Below, piece after piece: positions 1-45,314 of a stretch of DNA of 64,000 nucleotides. This DNA comes from Pecten maximus (lineage: Eukaryota). The stretch's first letter is position 1. The number at the start of each line of letters is the position of its first letter. A program made the translations under genes and the position numbers. The DNA lies in assembly GCF_902652985.1 (NCBI RefSeq), contig NC_047018.1:36580001-36644000 (forward strand). Direction: 5' to 3'. A model generated the notes under the pieces. The model was not told the origin of the DNA. It did not search any database and saw nothing but the letters and a program-made list of their open reading frames with translations.

Positions 1-124
1 TACAACCGATTCTGTAATTTGTATTACCCGCTTCCCATGATGCTTTGTGTATTAAATATGGCTGCCTGACAGACAAGCCTCGTGTTATGAATGCACACAC
101 ATGTACAGAACCCACGAATCAACA
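1..124 (+). repeat. 5' LTR (3' portion only)
   Basis: 1-124 matches 3791-3914 with one mismatch (C79 vs A3869). Ends ...ATCAACA immediately before the PBS. Confidence 0.95.
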
Positions 125-135
125 TGGTGGCAGCG
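125..135 (+). promoter_or_regulatory. Primer binding site, tRNA-Leu
   Basis: TGGTGGCAGCG directly after the LTR is complementary to the 3' end ...CGCUGCCACCA of eukaryotic tRNA-Leu(AAG/UAG). Confidence 0.85.
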
Positions 136-232: not shown

Positions 233-3200
233 ATGGACTCTCCGAGTCGCGCCCCTGCTCCGGCTATGGCCCCAACCCAAGTCAATAACGCATACAGTAC
301 CTCGTTACGTCTGCCCCCACAGCTCGATATAACTTCAGGAAATGTATCAGAGAATTTCAAACGCTGGAAGCGTGAAGTTGAGATATATTTAGCTGCATCG
401 GGTGCAGGTGAACGTAACCAGCGAATTCAAACAGCAATCATATTGAATTGCGCGGGATCACATGTTTTAGAGATCTATGACCAGATCACGTGGGAAGAGG
501 AAGGGGACAAGGACGACCCCAATAAAGTATTGCAAGCTCTTGAGAAATATTGCAATCCCCGCGACAACGAGGTATTAGAATCACATAGGTTTTGGAACCT
601 ACCCTATCAAGAACCTTTTGATAAATTCCTGACTGAAATGAAAACCAGAGTGTCTGCATGTAACTTCCAGGAAAAAGAGAGAATGATGCGCGATAAAATA
701 GTGTTCACAGTAACAGGAAAGTTACAGGAACTCTTGTTGAGGGAAGATAAACTCACCCTTGAGAAAGCTGTCAAGGTTTGTAGGGCATTTGAACAATCAA
801 ATAAGCAAGTAAGAGAACTTCGTGACACTAACCCCACATCGAGAGTGAACAAAGTCGCTAGTAACTATAACCAGAAACCAAACTCGAAGGGGAGGAAACT
901 ACCTGTACTAGATGACATATTGCCAAAATTGAAGGATGCCAAAATATTCAGCAAACTTGACATCAAAGAAGCTTATTGGCATGTGCGGTTGGACAAACAG
1001 TCAAGCTTGCTCACAACAATGATTACGCCATTTGGTCGATACCGGTGGACCAGACTGCCATTTGGTCTGAAGGTCTCCAGTGAGATATTCCAGCGGAAAT
1101 TAGATGAAGCCCTGAGTGACATTGATGGTGTTTTCAGTGTCGTGGATGACATCATCATACCAGGTTGTGGTCCTGACCTCGTCTCCGCCCAACGTGATAA
1201 TCAGCAGAAGCTAGAAAACGTCCTGAAGCGATGTGAAGAAAAACATATCACACTGAATGAAGAGAAGCAAGAAACTGGTCTCAACGAAATTGTATTTCAT
1301 GGTCACCGTATCTCGAAGGATGGTGTCAAGGTCGATGATGCAAAGGTCAAGGCCATTCATGACATGCCCTCACCCACTGACGTCTCAGGTGTAAAACGTT
1401 TGTGTGGCATGGCACAATACATGTCCCGTTTCTTACCGGATTTGGCAGAAACTTTGGAACCAATCCGAGCTCTTACCCGAAAAGGAACGCCTTGGAACTG
1501 GTCTGTTGATTGTGAGAAGGCGTTCAGATTACTTAAGCAAAAGCTGACCACTACACCATGTCTTGCATATTTTGACCCTGATAAGGAGGTTGTCTTACAA
1601 GTCGACAGCAGCAAGGATGGTATCGGAGCCGTACTTCTACAGGAAGGGAGACCCGTAGAATACGCGTCCAGAGCTCTTACGGTGTCAGAGAGAAAATGGG
1701 CTCAAATAGAAAAAGAAGCTTTGTCAGTGCTCTATGGTCTTGAGCGTTTTGACCAATATACATATGGGAGAAACGTCACGGTGCAGAACGATCACAAACC
1801 TTTGGCCGCCATTCTGAAAAAACCTCTGAGAATGGCGCCAAAGCGTCTACAGGACATCATGATGAGATTCCATAGATATGATGTGGAGTTTGAGTTTGTG
1901 AAAGGAGTCAACCTGTTGATCGCCGACACTTTGAGTAGAGCTTACCTCGACTCGACGGATGGAAACCGTGATGAACGTGTTCGCATTCTGACCGTGAATG
2001 TGTTTGGTGACATCCCAGATGCTAGGATTTCTGAAGTTAGAGAAGCCACAGCAAATGATTCAATCCTGCAAGCATTAATGACTCTTGTCATTGAAGGTTG
2101 GCCTACAAGAAGACAGGATTTGCCCCCTGGTGCCGCCGCATATTTTGATTTGCGTGAAAGCCTGTCAGTTGTTGATGGAATTATAATGAGGGGAGAATCT
2201 ATAGTAATTCCTCAAAGTCTCCGAGCAGACATGAAATCGCGTTTACACAGTGCACATCTTGGCTACCATAGTATGCTCAGGAGAGCCCGGTCAATGATAT
2301 TCTGGCCCGGTATGTCAGCCGACATCAAGCAACTTGCTGATGCCTGTGAAATTTGTCAGGAGATGAAACCGCGAAATGCGCCAGAACCGCTTACACAGCA
2401 CACTGAAGGAGCAAAACCCTGGGACAAGATAGGACTCGATTTGTGTCAAGTACAAGGGAAAGACTACCTTATAGCCGTAGATTACTACTCGCATTTCATT
2501 GAGTGTGACTTGCTTACTACGACAACAAGTGCACGTGTCATATCATTCGTAAAGAAACATTGTGCTCGCTATGGCGTCCCAAAGATGATTGTGTCAGATG
2601 GAGGACCTCAGTTCTCAAGCAGTGAATTTAAACATTTTGTCAGTCATTGGGGAATTAATCATGTGATGTCGTCTCCAATGCATCAACAAGCCAATGGTAA
2701 AGTCGAGTCCGCCGTCAAGGTCATGAAGAACCTGTTATTGAAAACTCTTGTTGAAGGGAAGGACCCATATGAAGCAATATTGGAACAACGTAACACACCC
2801 AGACAAGATACTGGTGTCAGTCCAGCGCAGGTAATGTTTGGAAGGACAACTCGAACATTCATTCCCAGTCTATGTCAGGATACCTCAACCTCAGTGCCAA
2901 ATGCTGAAATTAACAGGAAACGCGAAGCGCGTCGACAATCTGTGAAAAGGACATTTGACAGGAAGTCGCATCCATTACGCGCACTCAAAAATGGACAAAC
3001 CGTTTACTTCCAGCATCTAGAGGGAGAGCGATGGAAACTCGGGACAGTGAAAGAAAGGACTGCCTCGAAATCTTACACTGTTTGTGGTCCAGATGGTTGT
3101 GTATATCGTAGGAACCGCGTCCACATGAGGCCGACATCCATACTACCGCGTCCTCGCGAAGTGTCTCCAAATCGCGTACCAGATACTGTCTCTCAAAACG

Positions 3201-3391
3201 TGTCGCAGAAAGACTCCGTGGAGCCTACTAAATTCATGTCGTCTCATGATCAAATCTCTAGTAAAAGTGAAGCCAAGAAACCTACCACAAGTGGCACAGC
3301 TATGACAGTGATGGAACCGTTACCAACAGGAAGTACTCGACCTAAGCGTGATTCCAAACCGCCAGTGTACTTAAAGGACTATGTTACTTAA
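233..3391 (+). CDS. Gag-Pol polyprotein lacking zinc knuckle, protease and RT N-terminus (Gag, partial RT, RNase H, integrase)
   Basis: First ATG is at 233 (the track opens at GTG 218). Gag-like N-terminus (NFKRWK...RDKIV...LTLEKAVKVCRAFE). RT motifs FSKLDIKEAYWH, RLPFGL, VVDD. RNase H LQVDSS...EKEAL...DHKPL...ADTLSR. Integrase HHCC (HSAH...CEIC) and DDE (IGLD, SDGGPQF, GKVE). Confidence 0.92.
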   Translation: MDSPSRAPAPAMAPTQVNNAYSTSLRLPPQLDITSGNVSENFKRWKREVEIYLAASGAGERNQRIQTAIILNCAGSHVLEIYDQITWEEEGDKDDPNKVLQALEKYCNPRDNEVLESHRFWNLPYQEPFDKFLTEMKTRVSACNFQEKERMMRDKIVFTVTGKLQELLLREDKLTLEKAVKVCRAFEQSNKQVRELRDTNPTSRVNKVASNYNQKPNSKGRKLPVLDDILPKLKDAKIFSKLDIKEAYWHVRLDKQSSLLTTMITPFGRYRWTRLPFGLKVSSEIFQRKLDEALSDIDGVFSVVDDIIIPGCGPDLVSAQRDNQQKLENVLKRCEEKHITLNEEKQETGLNEIVFHGHRISKDGVKVDDAKVKAIHDMPSPTDVSGVKRLCGMAQYMSRFLPDLAETLEPIRALTRKGTPWNWSVDCEKAFRLLKQKLTTTPCLAYFDPDKEVVLQVDSSKDGIGAVLLQEGRPVEYASRALTVSERKWAQIEKEALSVLYGLERFDQYTYGRNVTVQNDHKPLAAILKKPLRMAPKRLQDIMMRFHRYDVEFEFVKGVNLLIADTLSRAYLDSTDGNRDERVRILTVNVFGDIPDARISEVREATANDSILQALMTLVIEGWPTRRQDLPPGAAAYFDLRESLSVVDGIIMRGESIVIPQSLRADMKSRLHSAHLGYHSMLRRARSMIFWPGMSADIKQLADACEICQEMKPRNAPEPLTQHTEGAKPWDKIGLDLCQVQGKDYLIAVDYYSHFIECDLLTTTTSARVISFVKKHCARYGVPKMIVSDGGPQFSSSEFKHFVSHWGINHVMSSPMHQQANGKVESAVKVMKNLLLKTLVEGKDPYEAILEQRNTPRQDTGVSPAQVMFGRTTRTFIPSLCQDTSTSVPNAEINRKREARRQSVKRTFDRKSHPLRALKNGQTVYFQHLEGERWKLGTVKERTASKSYTVCGPDGCVYRRNRVHMRPTSILPRPREVSPNRVPDTVSQNVSQKDSVEPTKFMSSHDQISSKSEAKKPTTSGTAMTVMEPLPTGSTRPKRDSKPPVYLKDYVT

Positions 3392-3746: not shown

Positions 3747-3914
3747 TGTTAATGATATATGCGTTCCGCATTGTCGGATTTGTAAATTAATACAACCGAT
3801 TCTGTAATTTGTATTACCCGCTTCCCATGATGCTTTGTGTATTAAATATGGCTGCCTGACAGACAAGCATCGTGTTATGAATGCACACACATGTACAGAA
3901 CCCACGAATCAACA
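3747..3914 (+). repeat. 3' LTR, 168 bp
   Basis: TGTT...AACA inverted termini, follows the PPT, matches the 5' LTR portion. Confidence 0.93.
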
Positions 3915-6900
3915 AAAATTAATATTTACCGGTAGTTAGATCAGATACAGTTCATTTTATACTTTGATATTTTTTTCTTTATATTTTCTTCAAATTACAT
4001 TTGTCGCAATCAATTACAATATAACTATTTCTAAAACGATAATCTGTAGCAGTGACGTTGTTGCAAATTTTTATTTCGAACAATCAACAGCAGGCTGGTA
4101 GATAATTAATTGTATACCAGGCTGTTTCGTTTAGTCTGAAATGTCTAAAATGAAGTAAAAACACGGAGAGTGTGCTAATATAAATATCATTATATTATAT
4201 ATCTACATATATCGCTTAAATCAGCAGCTTTTCGCATGTAAAACAAAATATTAGTAAATGGATTTCTTATTTAAAGTTAAAAAGACAATAATTAAGAAGG
4301 TCTCCTCACGGCTAATAATTCAGAGTATTTTCCCCGGGGTGTGTCCGACATAACCCGGGGGTGTCCGTAAATTAAAATCAGTGTAATAGGACATGGAGCA
4401 TAAAGAAACTTATACTGCGTGATTTAAAGTAAAACCGCAGACGAGGTGCTCTCCGCGCTTTACTCATTGTGAGGGAAGGGAAGTAACTCTCAAAAAAACA
4501 CAGTAATCATTACTTGAAAATAATTCACTTACACCACATGGACCACAGGAGCTTGCATAGAAGATGAATCTTAAAAATGTTTGATATGGCAGTGGTTTGT
4601 GTACTGTGGAAAATTCAAGACTGGTAACTCCGCCACCTGCGAAATGGCACCCTACCACACTTCACTCGACTAAAAAACACATTTATACAAACTGACACGG
4701 CGCATACTATATACTACCGTCATCTAGAAACATTCATCTTTCACCTACCGTGTCACTCAATACGAATTGTTACACCCAAAACACAATAATCCGTGAAAAC
4801 ATCGCTGAATTCCTCCTTCAGGACACCATTTTAAAAACTGCTCCCTCAGCCCAGCCATGTAATGCTCCAGACCAAGTCCGAAATAACATTGTCATCATAA
4901 AGTTAGATATGTACAGAAGAACCACTTAACAACGATATGTTTTGCATGTCCAACATCATCAGTATGGGAAGTTTTAAGCAAACTCGAAAAATCACTAAAA
5001 TTTTTGTTAAAAGGAAATGGCACAACATGTCAATATAGATTATAGAGATGTGTACAATATTGATGTATTCCAAAACAAAAAGCAAATTTTGCAAAACAAC
5101 AAATTCTCAAAATTCAACTGAATATAACAACATTACCCCAAGGAAACTGGAAACTTATAGAAATGACAAGAAACTTTAGAAGATATTTAACAAGAAATGT
5201 AAAGAATCCTGTGCGGGACTATAGGCTCTCACAGAGATGTCATTAAAAGAAAGAAAATAAATTATAGGTACACAAAAAAGGAAGTGTAAACATTGTTATA
5301 TAAAAGCTATGCCTTATTTATATTAATAGTCCTCGACCCCAATCCCATAATGGAAAGTTAACAACCATAACATTAAAATGTTAAAATCTTACTTAGAAAC
5401 TTGAATGGATTTGTTAAGTTTCACCTCTTTAGTAGGACTCACACAACTAAATCAGCCAATCAGCTGGTGTTTCGCTTGAACCAAGTCCCTGAAGAAAACG
5501 TGCTTCTTAGGTTTGTAGCCTTTCTCCCGAGTAAATAACATATGAAATGGGTACTTTCTATATACGAGAATGAAGAGTAGGGTCTTGAAATTTGGAAAAT
5601 CAAAAATGTACACTCCTACTAAAATTAGAATGGCGTAGGTTTCGAGGTGTAAAAAGGCGGGAATTTTCCCAGGTATGTTGTCTTTCTAGTACCCATGGGT
5701 CTTTTTTACCATCAAACCTTTACAGAAACATCATTTATCAGGTAGTAAAAACCTCAAACTTTAATATGATATACACTTCACATCATTTGAACTTCAGATG
5801 AGCGAATGAAGGGACGGAGTCACTAGTTAGAGCATATAGTAAAACAAATTAGTTGTGCGAGCCCTTGTAACTTCCTGATTTCTTAAACTTGATGAATTGG
5901 AGAAATTAAGTCAATGAGACTCAACAAAATAACCAATTCCATTTTTGGAACACTTTCAGTTTTGATCAGATGTATTTAATGAGGTGCAGAGCATTTGAAA
6001 AAAATATGAATGGCAAGCTGCTAGAAAGAAAACAAAGGGGCACAACCCTTCAAGTTAGTGAAAATCAAGCCCTGAATTTAATATGTGATTTTCTGTCTTT
6101 TCAGACATTTCATAAACCAAAGTCAACAACTGTAAGAGAGCTTGTCTGTGTCTAACTTCCGATGTTGGATTCCATCAAGGGTCTTTGACCTTAAAGAAGC
6201 TGAGGTTGCCAGATCTAATAATAAAATATGTGTATTGAAACCAGACCAAAATTATTGCAGTATTATTGTAGTATCATGTCAATAAATATCACAATTTACG
6301 CACCGATATTGATATGAGTATTTAACAAAAATATTTTTCTTCTTAAAGCAAACATATTTTTTTTACAATCATTTCAATCACCGGATTAGGCTATATAGTA
6401 AACGTTGTTTATATTTGAATTGTTCCAAGATATATAACCTTTCTCAAACACAATATTCTTAAAAAGATGGTTATATGATTGTTTAAGGCTCTTAAGACAT
6501 CAGCAAGTTCATGACATCAGAAAATTCATATATATTAATTGTCAAAGAAACATGTCAATACACAATATGATGTATAGTGCAATGGATGTTGAAAGCTTAA
6601 TTCCTGCTTTGTAGTCAAGCTGTCAAGAAGAATCAGATAATTAAAACGTTGGTACGATGAATTATACCCCCCACCCCCGAAAAAAAAAAATACCAGACCC
6701 CTATCCTTTCCACAGCGAACAATGTGGAAATACAGATGAGCATAAGGTAGACAATAAGATCTGGTAATTTGTGTAAAATGGACTTAATTTTACATCTTCA
6801 TAATTTGTTTATACGGTCTTCATAACTGTTTTAGAAAAAACACATTCCATACATGCTTTCAGCAGTTTGTTTTGGTCATCTCCTACCCAGTGTCTAACAT

Positions 6901-20469: not shown

Positions 20470-21356
20470 ATCAGTTGGAGGTAATGGAGTCCGTGGTAGA
20501 ATTGAGACTTGACACCAAAGTACGAGCGACATGTTCTGTAAACAGATCATCAATTAATGGCATCCCTAGATATTCACGCCGAGGTTTTTATGTTGTAAGT
20601 AATAAACTGATCAAAAATGCGAATTATCATATTTTTTCTTCATTGGCGTATTGTACATTAAACTTGAGATTTACAAGCGACGAATCGTTTAGCAAGTGGA
20701 TAAGGAATAATGTTTTGATAGTCTGTCTGCCTTATACAATAAAACTAAACAATTATCTATTATAAAGAAGAAAAGAGAGATCTTTTTTAAAGTAGTTGTT
20801 ATTAGGAATGAAAAATCGAACGTTCAATTTTACAATGCTGAGCCACTTACAGAACTGTACAAACCCACGGATACTTTAAATTGAGATGTTGTAAATGAAA
20901 CGTATAATTAAAATGGTTTCCATCCGAGTCAAAAAGCGTGATAAATGTAAGTTGGCATAGCCTTTTTCCAAGTTATTGAATGATAAGTAGTGTACATTTC
21001 ATTTTTTAATCAATCGATCGATTTTTAAAAATTATAATAAGAAACCTGTCAGATGAAATAATCATTGACGATTAAAACATATCGACATGTTTTGTTTTGT
21101 TTTTCTCTGTGAATCCGTGTATCCATGTGTCACACTAAACAACAAATGTATATATCACAGCTCTGGTATATACGTATCCGATAAAACAATTCTTTAGATT
21201 TGTTTGCAACCTTATAAAGCTGCAGCATTATCGCAATCCTACATCATTATAATGAAATATTATGAACATTCCGGAACAAGCCATATTCCATCAAACCTGT
21301 CCAAATCTATAATTGAATCTGAATAAAATTACATACCTTAACAGCCGAGATGGGAT

Positions 21357-21390
<34 letters not shown>

Positions 21391-23245
21391 CATCGTTGTA
21401 TAACACTATAACACCGTTCGCAACATCCTCATTGGTCGAATCCTTTTGGTGTTTCTACGAACAAATTCGTCTGGGTTAATACTTATTTTCCTCGTAAGAT
21501 TCAAACTGCAAATCAATCATACACTATACGTCTCAAATTGTCATTTATGAAAATGGCTTACTATGTTCCTGGTAAAAAAATATTTAGATCAGATTGAACT
21601 TCGGTAAAAATGACACCCCTCGTAGTTTATTTCAATTACAAAAGTTATATATCGTTTTAAAACATTCTTCTTGAAGGCAAATGGCAGATTTTCTTATGTT
21701 GGAATGGGACATTAACTGCAGATATCATTTTCCAATCTTCATTCAACCTCGATATCCATGTATAGCACAGATAATTGGCATACATGCATTATATATTAAA
21801 GTTAATTCTAGATGTATACTGTGTTTTGGTGAGAGTTACTTCCCTTCCCTCACAGTGAGCAAAGTGTGGAGATCAGGAATTTTTTTTTTTTTTTTTTTTT
21901 TTGTGCGGTTTATTTTATATCAAGCGGCATGATATATTGTATATTATAATTTAACGAATGTTAATCTAACCACCAAAATGTCTGAAAATGTGCTATACAC
22001 GCTAGGAAAGGTTCAACTACACATAGAGTGGTCCCTGTGGTAATTACCTGAGAATGATGAACACATAAAAATAAAAATAAAACAAAAAGATATGGTTTTA
22101 TGTGTAACATAACAAGCCATTGTCATAAATGACAATTTTGAGTTCTATAGTATATTGAGGTTGATATGCAGTATGCATATCAGAAGGAAAACAGATATTA
22201 ACCGAGACGGATTTATGGTTAAAATCAATCATCAAATACGTGTTCACTTTTGTAAAAACTATTCAGTTATATTGGGTATGAAACTATGTTGTTTGTACAC
22301 ACGCCAAAAAGATTTTGTTGAATTAAGCTCTGATCACTGTGACGTAACAATTGAAAGACGACATCATCTAGAAAACACAAACCTGGCTTTTCTTAAAATA
22401 GCAATAAAAGCATGTGAGAAGATCCGACCAAAGAGGACAACAGTGTTGTACAGCCTTAAATTCCAGTCCTAGGTTGCCAATGTATGTTATCATATTTAGA
22501 ATTATAGATTTGAACAGGTTTTATAGAATACGGCTTGCTCCGAAATGTTTTCATTATAATGATGTAAGATTGCGATAATGCTGGAAATTCATTTGATTGT
22601 TAAAATATCTCAAGAATTGTTTTATGTAATACATATAGCAGGGTATCGTAAAAAGCTATAGTCGTCAATGTTTATTTCATCCGACAGGTTTTCTTTTCTA
22701 AAGATCGATTGATTAAAAAAAGAAAAAGTACACTGTTAATCTCTTAATTTCGTGAAAAAAAAGGTTATGTCAACTTACTTTTAGCTTGTTTGCCCGGGTG
22801 GAAGCAACCGATATGTTCATTTAATAATTCCAGTAACAACATCCAGACTGAAAGTATCAGTGGTTTGTACAGTCCTCTAAGTGGCTCAGGATTGTAAAAT
22901 TGAACAAGTTAATTTAGAAAATTAGGAGGAATTCCGTTTTTTTAATTTCCCTTTTTAAAATCGTTTTCATCTTTCTGATAGGTAATATGTGAGTTTCATT
23001 GTATAATACAGACTTGCTAACAAACATTATTTGTGGTGTTGAATTATTTGTGAAGTTATCCAGTTTCTAAGCGATTCATCGGTTGTAAATCTCAAGTTTC
23101 ATGTACAATATGCCAAAGAAGAAAAAAAATGATAACTCACATTTTTGATTAGTTTATAACATGAAGACCTTGGTGTGAATATCTAGTGTCGCCATTTATT
23201 GATGAACTGCTGCTACCACGGACTCCATATTACCTCAGACTGACA
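20470..23245. mobile_element. ~600-bp diverged inverted repeat pair (20470-21073 and 22660-23245); possible long-TIR DNA element
   Basis: GGAGTCCGTGGTAG/CTACCACGGACTCC, AAACTTGAGATTTACAA/TTGTAAATCTCAAGTTT, TTCAATTTTACAAT/ATTGTAAAATTGAA and AAACCTGTC.GATGAAATAA/TTATTTCATC.GACAGGTTT match in mirror order. Confidence 0.7.
21357..21389 (+). repeat. Poly-G tract
   Basis: About 33 consecutive G. Confidence 0.95.
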
Positions 23246-23669
23246 TTTTGGATCATTTCATTTCAATATACTTTATTGAACTGTTGAGTTAAATAATAAA
23301 AATTAGTTGGATCGCATATCAGAAAAAAAATTGTATAAATTCTCACTCCGGTAATGACAACAGCAATTAGGAAAGTCAATAGAATGGAGTGACATTTATA
23401 GATTGACTTTCAAATGAAAGCAATGAATGAAAATGTCACACCAGTTCAGTTTTTTAGTAAGATAACTGAAATACATTTTAGATTTTTTAAAAAGAAACCA
23501 ATGCTATAAAAGGAAGGTCATGCAAGTTATATCATAAAACAAAGCATGCATAACTATTGTTTAATACCATGCAGTTATTAGATATTGACCAAGAAATCTT
23601 GTATGCTTGCTACATCCATATCGTTTTATGTATTTACGTTTAGCCAATTGCAAGCACAAATGTAAGAGT

Positions 23670-24369
23670 GCAAAAAAAGAGTTCTTATATCTGGAAACCG
23701 GTTGGTTACCCCTTTCGAAGAGAAGAGATGCTCGGAAACTTTCCTTATTCTATTCTATAGTAAATAATCTGGCACCTACTTTTCTTATCGACCTACTACC
23801 AATGTATATTGGCAACATAGCTCCTTATAATTTACGAAATGCAGATTTATTTAGGGAACAACACTTTCGTCTACAACTATCAAATAACTCCTTCTTTCCT
23901 TCTACTTCAAAACTTTGGAATGATTTACATAACACTATCAGAAACTCGCCTACCTTAAGTTCCTTCAAATCTAATCTAAAAAAATCTATGACAGTAAACA
24001 ATATATATGACAAGCATTTTATCAGTTATGGTCCTCGAAAACTAAATATTCTACACAACAGAATAAGAAATCGAGCAAGTGCACTAAGCTATGATCTTTT
24101 TAGAGCCAATCTCGTTGATTCACCTGCTTGTCAATGTGGACATCCCTGTGAAGATTCCTATCATTTTTTCTTTAACTGTCCCCTGTATAACAACTTAAGA
24201 GGAACTCTTATTGCTGATTTCACCTGGTACGGTCCTGTTAATGTAAATATACTTTGCAATGGTGACACGAATATCTCCTCAACTGACAATATAAAAATCG
24301 CCAAAGTTGTGCAAAACTTCTTGAGTAGGTCGGGAAGATTCGACTAATCATCACTTCCTACCCTACCCC

Positions 24370-25329: not shown

Positions 25330-26405
25330 AGATAATTCATTTAATGAAAAATGACAAATTTCTTACATCATACTTAAAGCTGCTTTGATTGGACATTTAA
25401 CAATATAATAAATCTCAAATCATTAAACATCATAATTTTTTTGAAAAGTAGAGGTTCCAGAATAATAGATTATGAATTGACTTGTGATGCTTTTTTTAGT
25501 CAAGAACGATACCGATAATTACACACTAATTACTCTAGTAAGTTATTTAGTGGAACAAATCACATGAATTCTCAATGAGCGTCTAATGCAATTCGATAGT
25601 GACTATTCTAAATTAAGTAACGCTCAGTATGGTTTCAAGAAGGATTTACCAACTATTGACGCCATCTTTGTATTACAAACATTAATAAATGAAAATCTGA
25701 AAAATAGAAAAAGACTATATTGCTGTTTTATTGATTACAAAAAAACAGCTTTTTTTATTGATACCTTGTGGTACAAACTTATTAAAGAAAGTGCAGGAGA
25801 AAAGATGTTGAATATCATCCGGGCTCTGTACAGCATCATAGGATTTCTTTTAATGTCAAAATGGATAATTCCGAGGGGACTTATGTCTCCTCTATTGTTT
25901 TCTATGTACGTTAATGACTGCGAAATTAATGTTTTAACAGAAGGGTGTCCTTCTATTGAGTTACAAAACTTCAATCTATTTTTAATTATGTATGCAGACG
26001 ACATGGATGTTATTGGTCGAAATTCTAGAGGGATTAAACAAATGTCTGATACTTTATCAATTTATGCAAAGAAATGGAATCCTACTGTTAAGACTTCTAG
26101 AACTAAGGTAATGGGTTTTCGAAACAGTGGTCAATTCAGAAAGGAAGATGAGTGGTTTTATAATTGGTGTGGTTTAGATATTGTAGATAAATTTAATAAC
26201 TTAGGTAAATTGATGAATTTTAATGGTAAATAAAAAACAAATTGCCGAACAGGAAAAAAAGCATTGTTTTCAATATCAAGAGTATATAAGAAATATATTT
26301 GAAAGTAGATACATACGTCGGTAATATTTTAATCATAGAGCGGGAAGTTTGGGGGATTTCATAAAGCTCCATATATTGAGAAAATTCCGTTATCTTTTCG
26401 TAAAA
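25330..26405 (+). pseudogene. Decayed non-LTR retrotransposon reverse transcriptase
   Basis: ORF 25586..26233 has AQYGFKK..TIDAIFVL, RLYCCFIDYKK, MSPLLFSMYVND, MYADD, KTSRTKVM. Stops and frameshifts on both flanks. Confidence 0.88.
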
Positions 26406-31889: not shown

Positions 31890-33374
31890 CACTGTCGTGT
31901 ACCCATTAGAAAATGGTCTTTCCAAGATGGCGGACCAAGATTGTTACAGAAGGTATATGTGCACTCCAAGCTACTAAATCACATTTTTATAAGTACACTC
32001 TGGCCGAGAAAAAATGTACGAATTCTAACTCAGAAATCGTTCAATTTCATATTACAACATGTATCGGCTGCTATTTAGTTAATAAACAACACAATCTTTG
32101 CATTTTGGTTACATATTAATCCCAAATAATGACTTCTCCGTTCATAATTGAGTGAAAATATTGTGGTATCGTCAGTTAACTTGTGTGACAGCATAATGTT
32201 ACACGATATGCTCATGAAGCCTGCACAATGTATGCACGACGATAGATATGCGCACGATGAGCGATCGAGACAAAGTCTGTGCGATATAGTTATCGTGATT
32301 GATGTAACGGCACAATTTGTGCGGACGATGTGTACAAGATGTGCTTAATGATGCATGTTTAGCGATCCACAACTGAACACCAATTTATAATTTTGGTTTC
32401 ATTTTTGTTTTTGTTTTATGGTGTAACTATAATATAAAAGAATTGCTTGTATGTCTTATTAAACAGCTGAATGCGTGATGTGTCCGTTGTATTCCCGATT
32501 GGGAATCCCTTCCGGTTCTATTTTTAGACGTTTCATGATTGGCTAATAGTATTATCATCTTACCTGAAACACCACTCTACGCTCAGGTTTTGGTATTTGG
32601 AACCAATCCATAACATGTTCTGCTGAACTTGTAACAAACGACCAATCCGTAACGTAAACAAACACAGTTTCACTTTGTTTTTCGTCATAGCCGTGTAATT
32701 TTCTTTTGGTCCCGGATATGACGCGACAGGTGGCGTTACAGGTCAAGATGAAGTATGTGATTGGTCAATGTAGCGGTAAATGCAAAATGTAGATATGCAA
32801 TTAAAAACGAAACAAAGTTAAGATTGAATGCAAGCTGAATACGTGGATGCATATTTTCAAATGACACTGTGACATTAATAGAATTATATTCTTGATTCAA
32901 TTGCAGTTTATTATCATCAAATATGATTCAAACTGATATAATTTTGTTATCCGCGCTGAAATGCATTAGTTAGTTAATCTATTTCACCAGCAGATTTATA
33001 TTATTACCACCAGCATTAAAACTATGCAGTTTATCTTTGTCAAAGATATTTCTTGTTGTACCTAGTACAGGGCTGTAAGCATGAACATCATATTGCTTAC
33101 AAGCGAACGTCTTTAGGGAGTCTTTATGTCTGTAAAGTTAAACATTAGGCTGTTTTAATATTTATTATGAGCGAATGATTCCGTTATCTTAGAACTAAAC
33201 AGCAGTATATAAATGTTGTAAAATAAAGTTTACTATTTTTGAGTTAGACTTTGTATTTTTCTCGGTCAGAGTGTACTTTAAGTGATTTTGTTGCTTTAAG
33301 TGCATACCATTCTTCTGTAAACATCTTGGTACGCCATCTTTAAAAGACCATTCCCTAACGGATACATGACAGTG
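31890..33374. mobile_element. Non-autonomous DNA transposon with ~240-bp diverged TIRs (CACTG...CAGTG)
   Basis: 31890-32130 is the reverse complement of 33140-33374 (AATGGTCTTT..AAGATGGCG.ACCAAGAT / ATCTTGGT.CGCCATCTT..AAAGACCATT; AAGTACACTCTG.CCGAGAAAAA / TTTTTCTCGG.CAGAGTGTACTT). No clear TSD. Confidence 0.72.
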
Positions 33375-35413
33375 TTAATTGCCCCTTCGACATGACCGTT
33401 CCTTGTTTTAAGCTGCTTTTTTTTTTGCTCCTCAAATACAGTTTGCTGTCTAGCGTTTCAGCATTTTATTTCCGCGGGACGGGGTCCTCTCTCAAATTAC
33501 ATTAAGAAATTGTTGAATGGACGTTTGTAAGAGTTATCTTTCCTTCATCACTTGGAAAAGGCTACGTATATTATTTTATTTTACTTTTATTTTATTTTTT
33601 TAATTTGTGTAATTATAACTTACTCTCGGAAATGTGTTTATACCTTTGAACACCCGCTGTGTTAGCGGTACACTTTGTATATATATATTGTACGTTGTAT
33701 ACCTTAGTCACGGCGGTGATTACGATCACGTCACGTTTACTTAGAAACCGAGATGATATAATCGTAACCCTTAAATTAGCGGTATTGTGCCATTAATTTG
33801 ATAATTTAATGTAAATTATTACGAAAAAATGTATATTTGAAGAAAAGAAGTGCTTTCTAACCTTATATATAACACGGTGTACTCGATGTACTGATATTTA
33901 CATGGTTGTGTCTATCATACCAGTCTCGCGATGTGCACGTGTAAAGTCGAGTTTATGCACGTGTAGTTCCATACCCACGCCACCTCGGGTGTCGTATGCA
34001 TACGCACCCGAAGCTTTCAATCTCACTCAGCAACCTTCCCAGGCCTCTGGTAAGTCTTTATCATTCTAACTTTATCTTATACTTGGAAATATGTAATTTT
34101 CATAGCGGAATATAATACTGTTTATCAATCGCCTGACCTGTTCTATCATTCAATAAACCTATGTCAAAATACCGTAAGACGCACGTGTAAAACACTATTG
34201 TGATTTCACAAATGATACATGACGTCACAATTAATATACGACGTTGCACGATTGTCTATGTAGGTAAACGCGTACCGACCGAGTCTGTCTATATATAAAT
34301 ACATTCATATAAGATCTCAATATTTATAATATCGGATCTTGCCTAATGTGAAAATAACTGAATACAATAAAGTAGGTAGCCACAGTTTCGAATATATCAT
34401 ATAACATGTTAGTTTCGTACTTAGTATCATATTGCATGTTGTATCTTAAATCTTGTTTTTTTGGTTTTCCCCACGGATTACCAGTAAAGAACCAATTACA
34501 ATCTCGTGTTAGGTACGTATAGGGCTACGTCTTTCTTATGTATTAAACTATTTATTGCGACAAATTTATTGAATAAGTTGGAGTGGGGCTACAATGTTAT
34601 TGTTCTGTTTATTTTTATGATCCCTTCCACATAGGATATTCTCATAACTGATTATTTTCCGGATTTTTTTTCGCCACCCCTTGCCAGATTAGTTCGTAAC
34701 TTGGATTGTGGCTTTATCATAATGGGTTACAGTTCGAGCTGCTACTTAGCTAGACCAGGCAATGGTTTTATAAACCTAATCACGTAATAGTGATTGTTCG
34801 GCTACATCCTACTAAAACAACAACAATGGACGACAAATACAACATCGAATTTTGGTCGGTGAATATTTGAAGCTTACAATCTTCATCATTTTTTACTTGA
34901 AGTGGTATAATTTAATTAGTTTAAACAGTATAATTTCAAGTATGCCTATGGTTGCCTGAACGCACCTGGCCAGGAAAAAACGAACAAAAATTAATCGTTG
35001 AGTCCATTAAACTATGACAAACTCAAGAAAAACAAAAACAAACAAGAAATATCTTTTAAAAAAAGATAAACGGCATAGTTTTAATGCTGGTGGTTATAAT
35101 GTAAACATTCTGGTGAAATAAATTAACGAACTATGCGTTTCAGCACGGACAACAAAATTATATCAGTTTGAATCATTTTTGGTGATAATAAGACTGCATT
35201 TGAATCGGGAATATAATTTTATGAATGTGTCATTTGAAAAGATACATCCACTTATTCAGCTTGCATTCAATCGTAACTTTGCTTCGTCTTTAACTGCATA
35301 TCTGCATTTTGCATTTACCGCTACATTGACCGACCACATACTTCATCTTGACCAGTAACGCCACCTTTCGCGTCATTTCCGGAACCAAAAGAATATTATA
35401 CGGCTATGCCGAA
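32682..35413. repeat. Two inverted copies of a ~375-bp interspersed repeat (32682-33058 and 35041-35413)
   Basis: GGTCAATGTAGCGGTAAATGCAAAATG and ACCACCAGCATTAAAACTATGC are mirrored in the second copy. Confidence 0.85.
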
Positions 35414-37111
35414 TAAATCATTCGTTCATATAATCTGTGGCGAACCATCTAAATCGTTTTGGAGCAGGTTAAAATTCACAGTCGTACCATTTTGTTATTG
35501 TCACTCTAGAGCCGCTTTTCGTCGCATCGCACCACCATCAGAGTTCCGGAAATGGAAGACCTCTTCGGACCAGTGACCTTGCACGCCAAATACCTAAAGA
35601 GAGTCATCAACCGAAAGAAAACTTCACGACTTGACTCTGGACACCCGTTTACCCACCATCCGTCTTCGTCAACAACGACGAGGAAATGTTGATGACGATA
35701 GAGGCAAGGGCCGGACGAAGACATCCCCAACCGCGCGAACAACGAAGACAGTCAACATCGAAGACTAGAAGAACTCGGTATGTATCATCGTGTGTAGATC
35801 TGCCCACATGCCAATGGGTTACAATGTGTGTTCACTTTTTGCACTCTTTAGAATATTTCGAGGGACGGGTTTCAAAATAATGAAGTCAAGTTGGGTTATT
35901 ATCAGGCCAGGTATGTTTCATATCGTTTCGAAAAGCATATTTCTGTATCATAGCTTTTGTCTTCATCAACAAAGGCGGACACGAAGACTAGAAAGATCTT
36001 TTTACACCAAACAGGGCCAGGGCGTCATGATTTTCCTATTTGTAATATGTTAAAATTATAATTAATTTAATAAAACATATAAAGTATAATAAGAAGCATC
36101 ACAGTGAAAACACGCTATTAAAACTGCCAAGTAAGAGTAAACACATTTGAAGAAAGTTCTTCGCCACATGAGAAACTTGACAGAAAAGTCAATCATGATA
36201 AAAAAATGTCCAGACAGTACTTCGTGAGCCAAAATAACTCATAAGTGTCGATACAATCATTAAAGGTAAGGTATAAAAAAACAATACCCGAGTTTGAGTA
36301 GCTTTTTCTGTGGACCCTCATCACCGTCGACACCGTCTTCTCACAAAACTATACATGTAACTTACAACGACTTACCTGTATGCTAGGGAATTGCTCCCGG
36401 GAAGGGGAAAAAATCGCCTCTGATGACGAAATATCCTATAAGTATAATATCTATGCATAAAGGTGACACGATATAAATACTAATTGTAACATCTATGTGC
36501 GAAAGCTTTTTTTGCGAAATGACTCTTGAATTATCAAATTAGAAATTAATATTGTCACAAATAAATTTAGATTGAAAGTCAGTTTTAGCACTATACATTT
36601 TTATCACAAAATTTCTTACAGAATGTCTTTGTGATACATGTACAAATGAAAATCACGCTTTGTTTGCTTCGTAAAAAACAAACAAACAAACAAATCATAA
36701 TCTTACAAATAATGATAAAGGTATGTAATTTTTAAATAATCGGTGTTTAAAAGTTGGATTAAATATCATTTCGTATATATCTAATACAACAGGAGATTTA
36801 AAAACAAAAACAAAAAAACAATGATATTATATATATATATTTGGTTTTTTTTTGGTAATCTACAATAGATAAGATATGAAATGCATCGTGTCACAACTAA
36901 CCGTGGTTTTGTTAACATGTGAAATGGTACCAATTATTATGGTTCCCGGCGTACTGGCATTAAATGTACAATGTTTATCAATTTTAAGTCCTAAACCAAA
37001 ATTAAAATAAGGAAATGGTCATGATTTTTTTTCAAGCGACTATGCCTGTTAAAATCAATATTGAAAATATTAACATGCATAAACTCTGTTTTTTAGATAA
37101 CCAATCAGTGC

Positions 37112-38790: not shown

Positions 38791-39534
38791 CTAATAGATA
38801 GATTATATGCTTACAATATATCCAAAATAATCTACTTACAAATTACACTAAATAATTTGAAATATATTTTCGCAAACTACGCTATGAAAAATCTTATTTA
38901 CAAATTATTCTAAATAGATAAAAACATATTTTTACAATTTACATTTAATATATCAAACATATACAAACAAATCACGATTAATTAATGAGGTATTTACTTA
39001 CAAGTTACGATTATTTTACTAACGAATCACGATTAATTGATAAGATAATTTAATTACAAATTACGATTAATATGAAAAGATCTTAATAGAAAAAATTCAC
39101 GAAACATATATTAACTACAGTTACATGAGTATTGTTTCGACTCGGCTTACAAATCATTATAAACATGTATTATATTATGCTTCAAACAAATATACGATAT
39201 CTTACAAATAGTGTTGGTCCGATGAATCGATTTAATCGATAGTTAGTCATTTTACTTCTGATTATGACTCATCGATAATGATTTTTTTTTTTTTTTGTGA
39301 TCGATGATGGTCGGCCTATAACTTTGAAAATTGCGGTAGCTATGGAGATATACAGACGAGTTCAAAAATTAATAAATGAACAAAGTCACTGTTGAAATTT
39401 AATCAAAATCCACTCAAACAACATTTTAAAACAGTAATTTTGAAAGATAATTTTGTTTTTTTATCATGGTCAAGAATTTTAAAATGATTCACAACATAAC
39501 TTACAAATTAATATAAAAAATTACATTCAAAAAT

Positions 39535-41359
39535 AATATCTGTACAAACCACAAATAAATCATATCTGTACTAATAACAGATAAATAATATCTTTACAAA
39601 CAATAAATATAATATCTATACTAACAACAACAAATATAATATCTTTACTAACAACAAATATAATATCTGTACTAACAACAAATATAATGTCTGTACTAAC
39701 AACAACAAATATAATATCTGTACTAACAACAACAAATATAATATCTGTACTAACAACAAATATATAATATCTGTACTCACAAACAAATATAATATCTGTA
39801 CTAACAACAAATATATAATATCTGTACTAACAACAAATATATAATATCTGTACTAACAACAACAAATATAATATCTGTACTAACAAACAAAATATAATAT
39901 CTGTACTAAAATAAATATATAATATCTGTACTTACAACAATAAATATAATATCTGTACTAAAAACAAATATAATATCTGTACTAACAACAAATATAATAT
40001 CTGTACTAACAACAAATATATAATATCTGTACTAACAACAAATATAATATCTGTACTAAAAACAAATATAATATCTGTACTAAAAACAAATATAATATCT
40101 GTACTAAAAACAAATATAATATCTGTACTAACAACAAATATAATATCTGTACTAACAACAAATATAATATCTGTACTAACAACAAATATAATATCTGTAC
40201 TAACAACAAATATAATATCTGTACTAACAACAAATATAATATCTGTTCTAACAACAAATATAATATCTGTACTAACAACACATATAATATCTATACTAAA
40301 AAAAGCAAATATAATATCTGTACTAACAAAAAATATAATATCTGTACTAACAACAAATATAATATCTGTACTAACAACAAATATATAATATCTGTACTAA
40401 CAACAAATATAATATCTGTACTAACAACAAATATATAATATCTGTACTAACAACAACAAACATAATATCTGTACTAACAAAAGCAAATATAATATCTGTA
40501 CTAACAACAAATATATAATAACCGTACTAACAACAACACATATAATATCTGTACTAACAACAAATATATAATATCTGTACTAACAACAAATATAATATCT
40601 GTACTAACAACAACAAATATAATATCTGTACTAACAACAACAAATATAATATCTGTACTAACAACAACAAATATAACATCTGTACTAATCACAAATATAT
40701 AATATCTGTACTAACAAACAAATATATAATATCTGTACTAACAACAACAAATATAACATCTGTACTAATCACAAATATATAATATCTGTACTAACAAACA
40801 AATATATAATATCTGTACTAACAACAAATATAATATCTGTACTAACAACAAATATAATATCTGTACTAACAACAAATATATAATATCTGTACTAACAACA
40901 AATATATAATATCTGTACTAACAACAAATATATAATATCTGTACTAACAACAACAAATATAATATCTGTACTAACAAACAAAAATATAATATCTGTACTA
41001 ACAGCAAATATAATATCTGTACTAACAACAACAAATATATAATATCTGTACTAACAAACAAATATATAATATCTGTACTAACAACAACAAATATAATATC
41101 TGTACTAACAAACAAAAATATAATATCTGTACTTAAATAAATATAATATCTGTACTAATAACAAATATAATATCTGTACTAACAACAAATATATAATTTC
41201 TGTACTAACAACAACAAATATAATATCTGTACTAACAACAACAAATATGATGTCTGTACTAACAACAAATATAATATCTGTACTAACAACAAATATAATA
41301 TCTTTACTAACAACAACAAATATAATATCTGTACTAGCAACAAATATAATATCTGTACT
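39535..41359 (+). repeat. 24-27-bp minisatellite array, left block
   Basis: (AAATATAATATCTGTACTAACAAC)n with variable (AAC) and (AT) slippage. Confidence 0.97.
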
Positions 41360-42000
41360 TTATTCAACTCCCAAGGCATGAAATAATCATTACAACTGTT
41401 GAATAGCATTCAGTTTATATCACACGTGGAATAAACTATAAATGCGTTTTGATTGGTTAACATAGTGACCTTTGCCGGGACTATTTTTTAATCGCGTGGT
41501 TCAATGCAATTTGATTGGCTAACACTTGAAGGCCGCTTCACGATGTCCTGGAAATGATAATGCATGAGAAGTAGTTCGCAGTTGTTATGCTAAATTCTTG
41601 AAAACATATAACGATTTTTATCAATTTATTGCTTTGAAAGAATAAACCTACTCATCAATTGTTATGATTTGTAATAAATTGTTATATTTCCATACATTTC
41701 CGAATTTGTCAGATTTGTATATTAATTAGTAGCATTTGAAACTAGGTCATATCTTTACACCACACCTGATATTGTGAAAAGAACACACATTGACACAAAA
41801 CAGGTCACTTCATTCTCAGAATAACTTTTCTATTGTGGTAGAAACAGGTCACACAAACTCGTGGTTGGTGTATATGGTATTTCTTTCACTTTCGTGAGTT
41901 ATTTTTCGAAAGTTACAAAAAATACTTGCTAAAGCTCGTGTTTGTGTAACAACTTTTGAAAGAAATACATTAAATAGCAACCACTCGGGGTGTAGCCTCT
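41360..42000. mobile_element. ~640-bp unclassified interspersed element inserted in the minisatellite
   Basis: Colinear homolog at ~53630-54170 (CATTCAGTTTATA.CACACGTGGAATAAACT.TAAATGCGTTTTGATTGGTT...AACCACTCG). Confidence 0.8.
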
Positions 42001-43630
42001 ATATCTGTACTAACAACACCAAATATGATATCTGTACAAACAAAGAAATATGATATCTGTACTAACAACAAACACATCATACCTACTGTAACAACAAATA
42101 TAATATCTGTACTAACAACAAATAAAATATCTGTACTAACAACAAATATTATATCTGTACTAACAACAAATATAATATCTGTACTAACAACAACAAATAT
42201 AGTATCTGTACTTACAACAAATATATAATATCTGTACTAATAACAAATATAATATCTGTACTAACAACAAATATATTATATCTGTACTAACAACAACAAA
42301 TATGATATCGGTACTAACAACAAATATATAATATCGGTACTAACAACAAATATATAATATCGGTACTAACAACAAATATATAATATCTGTACTAACAACA
42401 ACAAATATATAATATCTGTACTAACAACAAATATATAATATCTGTACTAACAACAAATATAATATCTGTACTAACAACAACAAATATAATATCTGTACTA
42501 ACAACAACAAATATAATATTTGTAATAACAACAAATATAATATCTGTACTAACAACAAATATAATATTTGTAATAATAACAAATATAATATCTGTACTAA
42601 CAACAACAAATATAATATCTGTACTAACAACAAATATATAATATCTGTACTAACAAACAAATATAATATCTGTACTAACAACAATAAATATAATATCTGT
42701 ACTAACAACAAATATAATATCGGTACTAACAACAACAAATATAATATCTGTACTAACAACAAATATAATATCTGTACTAACAACAAATATGATGTCTGTA
42801 CTAACAACAAATATATATAATATCTGTACTAACAATATATATATAATATCTGTACTAACAACAAATATAATATCTGTACTAACAACAAATATAATATCTG
42901 TACTAACAACAAATATAATATCTGTACTAACAAACAAATATATAATATCTGTACTAACAAACAAATATATAATATCTGTACTAACAACAATAAATATAAT
43001 ATCTGTACTAGCAACAACAAATATAATATCGGTACTAACAACAAATATATAATATCTGTACTTACAAACAAATATATGATATCTGTACTAACAACAAATA
43101 TATGATATCTGTACTAACAACAAATATAATATATGTACTAACAACAAATATAATATCGGTACTAACAACAACAAATATAATATCTGTACTAACAACAAAT
43201 ATAATATCTGTACTAACAACAAATATGATGTCTGTACTAACAACAAATATATATAATATCTGTACTAACAATATATATATAATATTTGTACTAACAACAA
43301 ATATAATATCTGTACTAACAACAAATATAATATCTGTACTAACAACAAATATAATATCTGTACTAACAACAAATATAATATCTGTACTAACAAACAAATA
43401 TATAATATCTGTACTAACAAACAAATATATAATATCTGTACTAACAACAATAAATATAATATCTGTACTAGCAACAACAAATATAATATCGGTACTAACA
43501 ACAAATATATAATATCTGTACTTACAAACAAATATATGATATCTGTACTAACAACAAATATATGATATCTGTACTAACAACAAATATAATATCTGTACTA
43601 ACAACAAATATATATAATATCTGTACTTAC
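42001..43630 (+). repeat. 24-27-bp minisatellite array, right block, with a ~436-460-bp higher-order duplication
   Basis: Same unit as the left block. Rare variants recur at an offset of 436-460 (ATGATGTCTG at 42789 and 43225; GTACTAGC at ~43006 and ~43466). Confidence 0.97.
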
Positions 43631-43799
43631 AGAGATATGGTAATATGTGTATGTGTATGTACATATCGGTAATCTGATATACAGTACATAATCATAATTC
43701 ACAATTAGTTAACGTTTGAAAATGATTCAGACTTGAGGCTTAGTCTATCTATATACAATACATACAGCCATGGGCATTGTACAGAGATTGAAGCCAGTG

Positions 43800-45190
43800 C
43801 TCCCTTATACTACGTTTTTGTTGGTTTGCCTTGTAGATAAATTTTCCTAGCAGACACATTTCTTTGACATTACGCACATTCAATAACTGAACTTCTTTGA
43901 ACATAGATTTTTTTCCACTAATATTTATAATATAACGGGATCTGACGTTTTGAAATTTTGAAAAAAATCAATAAAAATGAAATTCATCGTCCACTTCAGA
44001 GGGAGAGTTACTATATCTACATTCTCTGTATCATGTTAAACTTTCCTGGTTCAATTGTTAAAGTATGTGTAGATGTACCATTTCAAGTTAAACAATGCAA
44101 TAGCTCAGTACGTAATACAAAATCTGTAAGATGAAATTATAAAGATTCTTCAAAATGAATTTTATATTTATACTCTAAACATTTAGGAGAATTGGGCTCT
44201 CAGTAGTTGTACACCCTGACAAAAATAAAATTAATGATAGTAATATTAGCAAAATACACTTAATAAAGCATCACCCGGACGTAAATTATTTAATCCATCT
44301 CTAATTGCTGTAGCCCATTTGCAATCATTTTTACTTCAATTTTGTTATAGGAATTTATATGATTTTGATACACTATACTAAAATTTTCAGATTCCGAAAT
44401 CTTTAACGACCAATATTTTATTATTCTAGGTTGTTTTTTTTCATCCAAAGTAGATAATCTTCATTTAAAGTACGCCATGTTGTTTTTGGCTGTTTTCTTC
44501 ACTTTCAATAATTCTTTGCAAAAAAAAATAACTATAAATTTTCCCTACATATGTATCAAAATGGTAGAGCATAGTTTTAATCTTTGAATTTAATTATGAA
44601 CACTTTGAAAACAATGCAACCAAAATTTATCGTCGTTGGATAGATAATTAGGTTTGATAAACAGATAGAGAAATCGATCAACACATTCATTTTTACTTTG
44701 TAACACGGTTTTTTGTTATCCCGGAATTCTCCACCTCTTCTAAAAAAAATGATTTTCGTTTTTCTTTTTTTTCAACACTTGCAGTTAGAATCCATTTGGA
44801 ACACCAATTTTCTAAATTATCAAGCACATCTTGGAGACCTCCTCGTCTAAAAAAAACCACCAGATCAGCATCATATCCCGAATCCTTCAAAGTCATAACT
44901 TCTCTTGAAATTCTGTATAAACATGGTTTAAAATCATTTATATACGAAAAGAAAATCATTGGTGACAAAATTTCACTTTTTAATAATCCGACTCTGTTAA
45001 GGAAAATCAGACAATTTTCCATCTTATTTAACTCAAGATTTAGCTTGAGAATACATTTGCTTTAAAATTTTTACAAAAATTCCTCTTATATACCTAGTTT
45101 AGATAGCTTATTATATAAAGTTAGTTTACAGATGTAATAAAATGCGTTGCGAAAATCCACAAAACAGCAATATAATAGTTTCTGTATACT
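43800..45190 (-). pseudogene. Decayed non-LTR retrotransposon ORF2 (RT plus C-terminal remnant)
   Basis: Minus strand gives YCCFVDFRNAF, EILSPMIFFSYIND, YDADLVVF..GLQDVLDNLENWCSKW, and DDEFHF near 43980. Confidence 0.78.
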
Positions 45191-45314
45191 TAATTACCAA
45201 GATAAGACTCAATGTAATTTGCATTATCTAATTAATTAATGTGATTATTATGCTAATCAACACTACCAAATTATAAGAACATGTGGTAATATTCTTAAAC
45301 TAAAATATACAAAA

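What the first reader, a model, noticed from the sequence alone, without database searches (positions are those of the whole stretch)
840..960. Young Gypsy element with a clean in-frame loss of zinc knuckle, protease and RT N-terminus
Seen: the ORF reads ...NYNQKPNSKGRK|LPVLDDILPKLKDAKIFSKLD, joining the post-capsid Gag linker to the 'LP..DD' motif inside RT at about 885-900. There is no CCHC, no D(T/S)G protease and no RT 'R.C.D...LN' motif. The remaining >1000 codons, PBS, PPT and LTRs are intact. Known: Mag/Steamer polyproteins carry all of these domains between Gag and this motif. Inference: this is either a one-off deletion or a non-autonomous lineage mobilised in trans that still encodes Gag-RNaseH-integrase. 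It could be a retrotransposed spliced subgenomic RNA (the junction contains AG|G) or act as a defective-interfering element.
Basis: partly seen in the sequence, partly recalled or inferred. Interest (0 to 1): 0.7.

Follow-up and report, generated by a model that had tools for sequence, protein, structure and literature searches.

The report
One-off deletion in scallop retrotransposon copy
This is one young copy of a Gypsy-type jumping gene in a scallop genome that lacks an 879-base internal piece still present in its sister copies; it is the only copy in this genome with that gap, so it is most likely an ordinary one-off breakage that happened to keep the reading frame.

Summary
The window's 3,958-nt LTR element (168-nt LTRs, 5-nt target duplication) lacks 879 nt (293 codons) relative to its siblings. 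The loss removes both zinc knuckles, the protease and the first 54 of 205 RT profile positions; a 1,052-aa frame stays open. The junction occurs once in the 918-Mb assembly, and all 8 siblings run on into the lost segment. No register of the deletion has splice ends; the overlap is 2 nt, which 17% of random deletions show, and a third of random deletions keep the frame. Private coding changes are 5 non-synonymous to 1 synonymous, as neutral decay predicts. No contig shown from 7 public runs carries the junction; one run shows the empty insertion site. None of 236 homologous Gag+RT proteins shares the breakpoint. Siblings carry other private deletions, one with a reverse-transcription signature. 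No reads from the assembled animal were laid, so an assembly error is unlikely but not excluded. The scan has reported similar deleted LTR copies in other genomes.

The parts
1..124 (+). 5' LTR (last 124 of 168 nt; the first 44 nt lie upstream of the window)
   Evidence: full 168-nt LTR in L031, 1 mismatch to the 3' LTR, ends TG..CA
125..135 (+). Primer-binding site, 11 nt complementary to the 3' end of tRNA-Leu
   Evidence: the sibling L033 motif that extends it matches host tRNA-Leu(AAG/TAG) genes
233..3391 (+). Single open frame, 1,052 aa: Gag capsid region fused to N-terminally truncated RT, RNase H, integrase
233..898 (+). Gag region up to the linker (residues 1-222); no Pfam hit, assigned as Gag by position and by homology to the N-terminus of related polyproteins
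897..900 (+). Deletion junction: 879 nt missing, 2-nt overlap at 898-899, no splice ends in any of 3 registers
899..1312 (+). Truncated reverse transcriptase (RVT_1 profile 55-205, residues 224-360)
1499..1879 (+). RNase H (residues 423-549)
   Evidence: PF17919, PF17917
2207..2680 (+). Integrase zinc-binding and core domains (residues 659-816)
   Evidence: PF17921, PF00665
3734..3746 (+). Polypurine tract
   Evidence: sequence; same tract in siblings
3747..3914 (+). 3' LTR, 168 nt
3915..3919 (+). Right copy of the 5-nt target-site duplication (left copy lies upstream of the window)
   Evidence: empty site seen as a 3,963-nt skip (3,958 + 5) in run X3

Best explanation
This is a single copy of a young, low-copy Ty3/Gypsy family that lacks 879 nt through one internal deletion, most likely made when reverse transcriptase slipped between two points sharing only 2 nt, and it is likely a dead end that kept its frame by chance. 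Shown: size, position and uniqueness of the gap in this assembly; no splice ends; normal integration marks (LTR ends, 5-nt duplication, empty allele in another animal). Inferred: the stage at which the piece was lost. I put about 0.50 on an aberrant strand transfer during minus-strand synthesis in a normal particle, followed by normal integration, and about 0.38 on DNA repair after a complete copy had inserted; both are counted in the confidence. Inferred from general retroelement biology: without nucleocapsid, protease and the RT start the fusion protein would not process itself or copy RNA, so the copy could move only with help from intact relatives. Nothing here shows that it has.
For: Uniqueness: 1 of 16 BLAST matches (16 candidates, all scored) spans the junction; a 23-nt junction pattern with up to 1 mismatch gives 1 place, control 0; the LTR census finds 9 copies with internal sequence, 2 solo LTRs and 1 diverged match. 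All 8 siblings read on into the lost segment; 7 of 8 have the two flanks exactly 879 nt further apart, and the eighth has its own larger deletion. Chance: of 200,000 simulated 200-900-nt deletions, 33% keep an open frame and 17% have 2 or more nt of overlap; there is no wider likeness between the breakpoints (11 of 50 matches; 76% of random pairs do as well). No sign of selection: private coding changes are 5 non-synonymous and 1 synonymous, against 0.78 non-synonymous expected from random change. The family breaks often: siblings carry their own deletions of 11, 12, 29, 49, about 226, 316 and 2,835 nt, none shared within the assembly. One sibling (L033) has its PBS extended to an 18-nt tRNA-Leu copy joined to a point 316 nt downstream. 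This resembles the aberrant second-strand transfer described for HIV-1 (PMC12657518, passages), so RT-stage deletions likely occur in this family. The same paper says minus-strand transfer errors give internal deletions, often with short homology. Other animals: single contigs of 4,668 and 4,582 nt in runs X1 and X3 run through both breakpoints with the segment in place; no 879-nt joint is listed for X2, X7, X9 or X11.
Against: The frame is still open despite 9 private substitutions (8 counted, one more in the 3' LTR). This is unremarkable but is also what a functional fusion would show, and 6 coding changes cannot exclude selection. Only one assembly was counted, and contigs of public runs drop rare variants, so further copies of the deleted form in other animals are not excluded. 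The genome search scores only its best candidates. No run laid here appears to be from the assembled animal, so the junction was not confirmed by reads. The stage of the deletion cannot be read from the junction: L039, with a clipped 5' LTR and no matching target duplication, suggests that post-insertion loss also acts on this family.
Confidence: 0.88

Rival explanations
1. A non-autonomous lineage like mouse IAP 1-delta-1: the in-frame Gag-pol fusion is translated, helps its own RNA in cis or interferes with helpers, and spreads with enzymes from intact siblings; other copies sit in other animals.
For: All cis signals are intact and the frame is open. A sibling with an uninterrupted frame exists in the same genome. 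Insertions of this family are polymorphic (empty site in X3), so one assembly samples few loci. A precedent exists (PMC6466679, passages).
Against: 1 copy among 9. No junction contig listed in 7 runs. The copy has 9 private substitutions and differs from the other six two-LTR copies at 16-24 sites 3' of the junction, so it has had time to spawn copies and none is seen. Private changes look neutral. 0 of 236 homologues share the breakpoint.
Confidence: 0.05
2. Assembly error: the locus really holds a full-length copy and the 879 nt were dropped.
For: No read or contig shown here spans the junction, and this exact protein is not in the 15-billion-sequence collection while six sibling proteins are.
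Against: A repeat collapse needs long shared sequence at the two ends, and there are 2 nt. There is no N in the element. The copy has its own flanks, target duplication and private letters, and its outer limits match an independent empty site to the base. The other copies assembled with the segment in place.
Confidence: 0.05
3. Retrotransposed copy of a spliced subgenomic RNA.
For: The loss is clean and in frame.
Against: The three possible registers end AC..CG, CC..GA and CG..AC; none is GT..AG, GC..AG or AT..AC on either strand. The nearest GT is 3 nt inside the left break and the only AG in the 40 nt before and 25 nt after the right break is 14 nt beyond it; no pyrimidine tract. The cut falls inside RT, not at a domain border.
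Confidence: 0.01
4. Host-recruited (domesticated) fusion gene.
For: Long open frame.
Against: LTRs 99.4% alike, an empty allele in another animal, no excess of synonymous change.
Confidence: 0.01

Closest known systems
Internally deleted, defective copies of LTR retroelements (for example HIV-1 proviruses with one internal deletion; PMC12657518, passages read)
   Same: One internal deletion starting in gag and ending in pol, intact ends, short overlap at the junction, not shared with other copies.
   Different: An endogenous Gypsy element in a bivalve germ line; repair after insertion is an equally open cause.
Mouse IAP 1-delta-1 subtype (PMC6466679, passages read; the primary paper PMC2413153 is not held)
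   Same: In-frame deletion that removes part of gag and pol and leaves one gag-pol fusion frame with intact LTRs.
   Different: 1-delta-1 is a common subtype that causes most new IAP insertions and whose fusion protein acts in cis; this deletion is seen once, is 879 nt rather than 1.9 kb, and shows no sign of spread or selection.
Steamer family and related C-clade branches of the Mag lineage in bivalves (PMC8905726, PMC11046912, PMC6238403; passages read)
   Same: The undeleted siblings are about 4.8 kb with one gag-pol frame, two zinc knuckles, short LTRs (168 nt; 153-219 reported), tRNA-Leu priming and few copies.
   Different: LTRs start TGTTAAT and end ATCAACA rather than TGTAACA and (T/A)TAAACA; the PBS differs from the Steamer PBS at several places; the protease motif is DSA rather than DSG.

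Membership tests
Ty3/Gypsy LTR retrotransposon | Direct LTRs with TG..CA ends and a short target-site duplication | tested here: met
   168-nt LTRs, 5-nt duplication in the window copy and in 6 two-LTR siblings
Ty3/Gypsy LTR retrotransposon | Domain order protease-RT-RNase H-integrase | tested here: met
   Pfam order in the sibling (protease hit weak, below cut-off); RT-RNase H-integrase order in the window copy
Ty3/Gypsy LTR retrotransposon | tRNA primer-binding site and polypurine tract | tested here: met
Autonomous element | Complete nucleocapsid, protease and RT | tested here: not met
   293 residues missing
Steamer family (sensu PMC8905726) | LTR starts TGTAACA and ends (T/A)TAAACA; PBS as in Steamer with at most 1-2 changes in its last three bases | tested here: not met
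   against passages
Steamer family / Mag lineage C-clade | Placement in an RT/RNase H tree with reference elements | not tested
   No named reference sequences were returned by the tools; homologues carry only the generic name 'K02A2.6-like' or similar
Non-autonomous lineage (IAP 1-delta-1 type) | In-frame gag-pol fusion with intact cis signals | tested here: met
Non-autonomous lineage (IAP 1-delta-1 type) | Same deletion at several independent insertion sites | tested here: not met
   1 place in the assembly; one assembly only, so other animals are weakly sampled
Non-autonomous lineage (IAP 1-delta-1 type) | Fusion protein translated and acting in cis | not testable with these tools
   Needs expression and transposition data
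Retrocopy of a spliced RNA | Lost segment bounded by GT..AG, GC..AG or AT..AC | tested here: not met
   none of 3 registers, either strand

The most novel reading that the evidence does not exclude
The copy is one member, or the founder, of an IAP-1-delta-1-like parasite of a bivalve Gypsy family: a Gag fused in frame to truncated RT, RNase H and integrase that favours its own RNA or poisons helper particles, with further insertions in animals not sampled here.
Probability: 0.05. Interest if true: 0.55.

Novelty: new member of a known kind. Interest (0 to 1): 0.08.

Why it matters
As it stands it matters little: it is one more broken copy in a small, recently active family. The family is a tidy example of how quickly LTR copies decay, with only 1 of 9 keeping an uninterrupted full frame. 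One sibling preserves a copied tRNA end at its deletion junction, a footprint of a reverse-transcription error known from retroviruses. If the deleted form turned out to spread, it would be an invertebrate parallel of the mouse IAP 1-delta-1 element and a case for studying cis-acting or interfering Gag-pol fusions.

Tried and rejected
Splicing: rejected on junction ends. Pairing of the two breakpoint regions in the RNA: only 5 base pairs link them in the predicted fold, no control run, not used. Template switch between two sub-lineages at the junction: the window copy shares one letter left of the break with one group and four letters right of it with L034/L037, but it also lacks a later L034/L037 letter, so an intermediate position on the tree explains this without recombination. 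Recurrent architecture: of 263 proteins from two searches (best 120 of 530 listed; best 150 of 33,736), 236 had both Gag and RT; 222 had the normal 250-400-residue spacing and 8 had under 150. I viewed five of the 8 (P0077, P0084, P0122, P0164, P0207 and also P0213). The three shortest keep the RT start or its IC.DP motif, break elsewhere, and are 1-2-member clusters of gene models from a coral and a pseudoscorpion; their DNA was not seen, so they may be predicted introns. Expression: no RNA holder listed; runs X6, X7 and X9 are only guessed to be RNA, and the higher depth on the 3' half in X7 and X9 cannot be read as a subgenomic RNA. Table 8 was cut, so not every contig piece was seen. Rows dropped: the alignment of L038 beyond about position 2,100 is meaningless because a tandem repeat interrupts that copy, and L038 was left out of the substitution counts. 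Papers: PMC4191779 and PMC2413153 are not held. Searches listed no paper that by title or abstract start describes this family or deletion; subscription papers, Repbase and supplements were not seen, so this is no proof that the family is unnamed.

Full report
Observation. The window begins inside the 5' LTR of an LTR retrotransposon. One frame runs from ATG 233 to the stop at 3391 (1,052 aa). Pfam finds a reverse transcriptase that starts at profile position 55 of 205, then RNase H and integrase, and no protease. With the upstream flank fetched, the element is 3,958 nt, with 168-nt LTRs that differ at one site, an 11-nt primer-binding site, a polypurine tract and a 5-nt target-site duplication. 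Sources name near-identical proteins as Pecten maximus (great scallop) 'K02A2.6-like'.

The family. A search of the window's own genome (918 Mb) with the element and with the LTR gave 9 copies with internal sequence, 2 solo LTRs and one diverged LTR match. Apart from indels, seven of the copies differ from the comparison copy L032 by 0.3-0.9%. L032 has an uninterrupted frame of 1,345 aa and served only as the ruler. Pfam places a weak protease match at its residues 319-404 and a full RT at 489-653.

The deletion. The window copy lacks 879 nt, or residues 223-515 of the sibling protein: the end of the Gag linker, two Cys/His knuckles, the protease (motif DSA in this family and in 30 of the first 120 homologues) and the RT start. 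Two letters, window 898-899, fit either side. All 8 siblings read on into the lost segment. Seven have both flanks exactly 879 nt further apart, and L039 has a different, larger deletion.

Is it shared? In the assembly, no. One of 16 BLAST matches spans the junction, and a 23-nt junction pattern with one mismatch allowed matches once, with 0 for the reversed control. In public data I laid 7 of the 24 listed runs, all as assembled contigs. In X1 and X3 single contigs of 4,668 and 4,582 nt run through both breakpoints with the segment present. In X6 a contig leaves the window sequence at the left break. Laid on the sibling, X2, X7, X9 and X11 list only one joint, the loop through the LTR, and none of 879 nt. 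X3 also shows a 3,963-nt skip, the empty insertion site. These contigs drop rare variants and the piece tables were cut, so they show that the deleted form is not a major part of the family in those samples, not that it is absent. At the window copy's private positions the runs read the sibling letter, so none seems to come from the assembled animal and the junction itself is not confirmed by reads.

Is it a splice? No. The three registers give ends AC..CG, CC..GA and CG..AC; none is a known intron pair on either strand, the nearest GT is 3 nt off and the nearest AG 14 nt off.

Is the open frame meaningful? Probably not. Of 200,000 simulated deletions in this element 33% keep an open frame and 17% have at least 2 nt of overlap. 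The window copy has 5 non-synonymous and 1 synonymous private change in its frame, against 0.78 non-synonymous expected at random. The seven siblings counted have 37 and 26; changes shared by two or more copies are 7 and 8. Six changes cannot exclude selection, but they give no sign of it. One of them alters the integrase NGxAE alanine found in 75 of 85 homologues with that motif, though 4 carry the same valine.

Is the architecture recurrent? Two protein searches returned 263 proteins; 236 had both Gag and RT, 222 with normal spacing and 8 with under 150 residues between them. The three shortest break elsewhere, keep the RT start or its IC.DP motif, and are 1-2-member clusters of eukaryotic gene models. 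None shares this junction. Only the best hits were listed, and looked at proteins of 578-1,841 residues only.

Mechanism. The family loses pieces often: siblings carry private deletions of 11, 12, 29, 49, about 226, 316 and 2,835 nt, plus frameshifts and stops, and only 1 of 9 copies keeps an uninterrupted full frame. Two routes are visible. In L033 the primer-binding site is extended from 11 to 18 nt of tRNA-Leu complement and joined to a point 316 nt downstream that shares a few letters; the motif matches host tRNA-Leu genes (6 genes in 3 of 7 loci scanned). This resembles the aberrant second-strand transfer reported in HIV-1 proviruses (PMC12657518, passages) and is inferred to be an error of reverse transcription. 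In L039 the 5' LTR is clipped and the target duplication does not match, which points to loss after insertion. For the window copy I favour slightly an aberrant transfer during minus-strand synthesis, which that paper describes as a source of internal deletions with short homology, followed by normal integration (about 0.50), over later DNA repair (about 0.38). From general knowledge of retroelements, a product without nucleocapsid, protease and the RT start would not be self-sufficient.

Comparison with known systems. It is a Ty3/Gypsy element by LTRs, priming signals and domain order. Its undeleted siblings resemble bivalve Steamer-like elements in size, single frame and tRNA-Leu priming (PMC11046912, PMC8905726; passages), but LTR ends and PBS do not meet the Steamer description, and clade placement needs a tree that I did not build (PMC6238403, passages). 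In anatomy it looks like mouse IAP 1-delta-1, an in-frame gag-pol deletion subtype that spreads with help and whose fusion protein acts in cis (PMC6466679, passages; lead from earlier finding e1-9908791). It fails the defining test for such a lineage, which is the same junction at several sites.

Verdict. It is an ordinary single-copy internal deletion (0.88); a spreading lineage (0.05), an assembly error (0.05), a spliced retrocopy (0.01) and domestication (0.01) remain as small rivals. Interest 0.08.

Noticed in passing
L033 element start (G000:C11:36932617-36933194, minus strand): Sibling whose primer-binding site is extended to an 18-nt tRNA-Leu complement and joined 316 nt downstream, plus a second 49-nt deletion: likely footprint of a misplaced plus-strand transfer. 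The rest of the family matches the tRNA over only 11 nt.
   Followed up: partly
L039 (G000:C15:5157446-5159340, minus strand): Sibling with a 2,835-nt internal deletion (4-nt overlap), a 5' LTR clipped to 61 nt and no matching target duplication.
   Followed up: partly
L038 (G000:C17:12772617-12774701): Sibling cut off inside RT by a tandem repeat; another copy (L037) lies about 15 kb further on. Whether the rest of L038 lies beyond the repeat was not found in the stretches fetched.
   Followed up: partly
L040 and L041 (G000:C17:12435258-12435425; C3955:6077-6204): Two solo LTRs with 5-nt duplications; the second has a short internal deletion near its 3' end.
   Followed up: partly
L032:1256-6092, runs X7 and X9: Contigs of two runs guessed to be RNA carry the 6-nt 3' insertion that marks the L033/L035 sub-lineage; X7 also carries the 29-nt leader deletion of L035.
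   Followed up: no
window 54572-58608: 36-nt minisatellite, about 112 copies, 90% matches, G+C 50-55%, with long stop-free frames on both strands; probably non-coding but not tested.
   Followed up: no
window 39529-47086 and 60251-61092: Long 24-26-nt and 31-nt tandem arrays; the first region has a strong negative GC skew.
   Followed up: no
window 20599-23160 and 32678-35416: Two stretches bounded by long imperfect inverted arms (81-93% complementary), likely DNA-transposon or foldback remnants.
   Followed up: no
window 23589-24347 and 25568-26233: Two frames that look by eye like LINE reverse-transcriptase and C-terminal remnants (not scanned).
   Followed up: no
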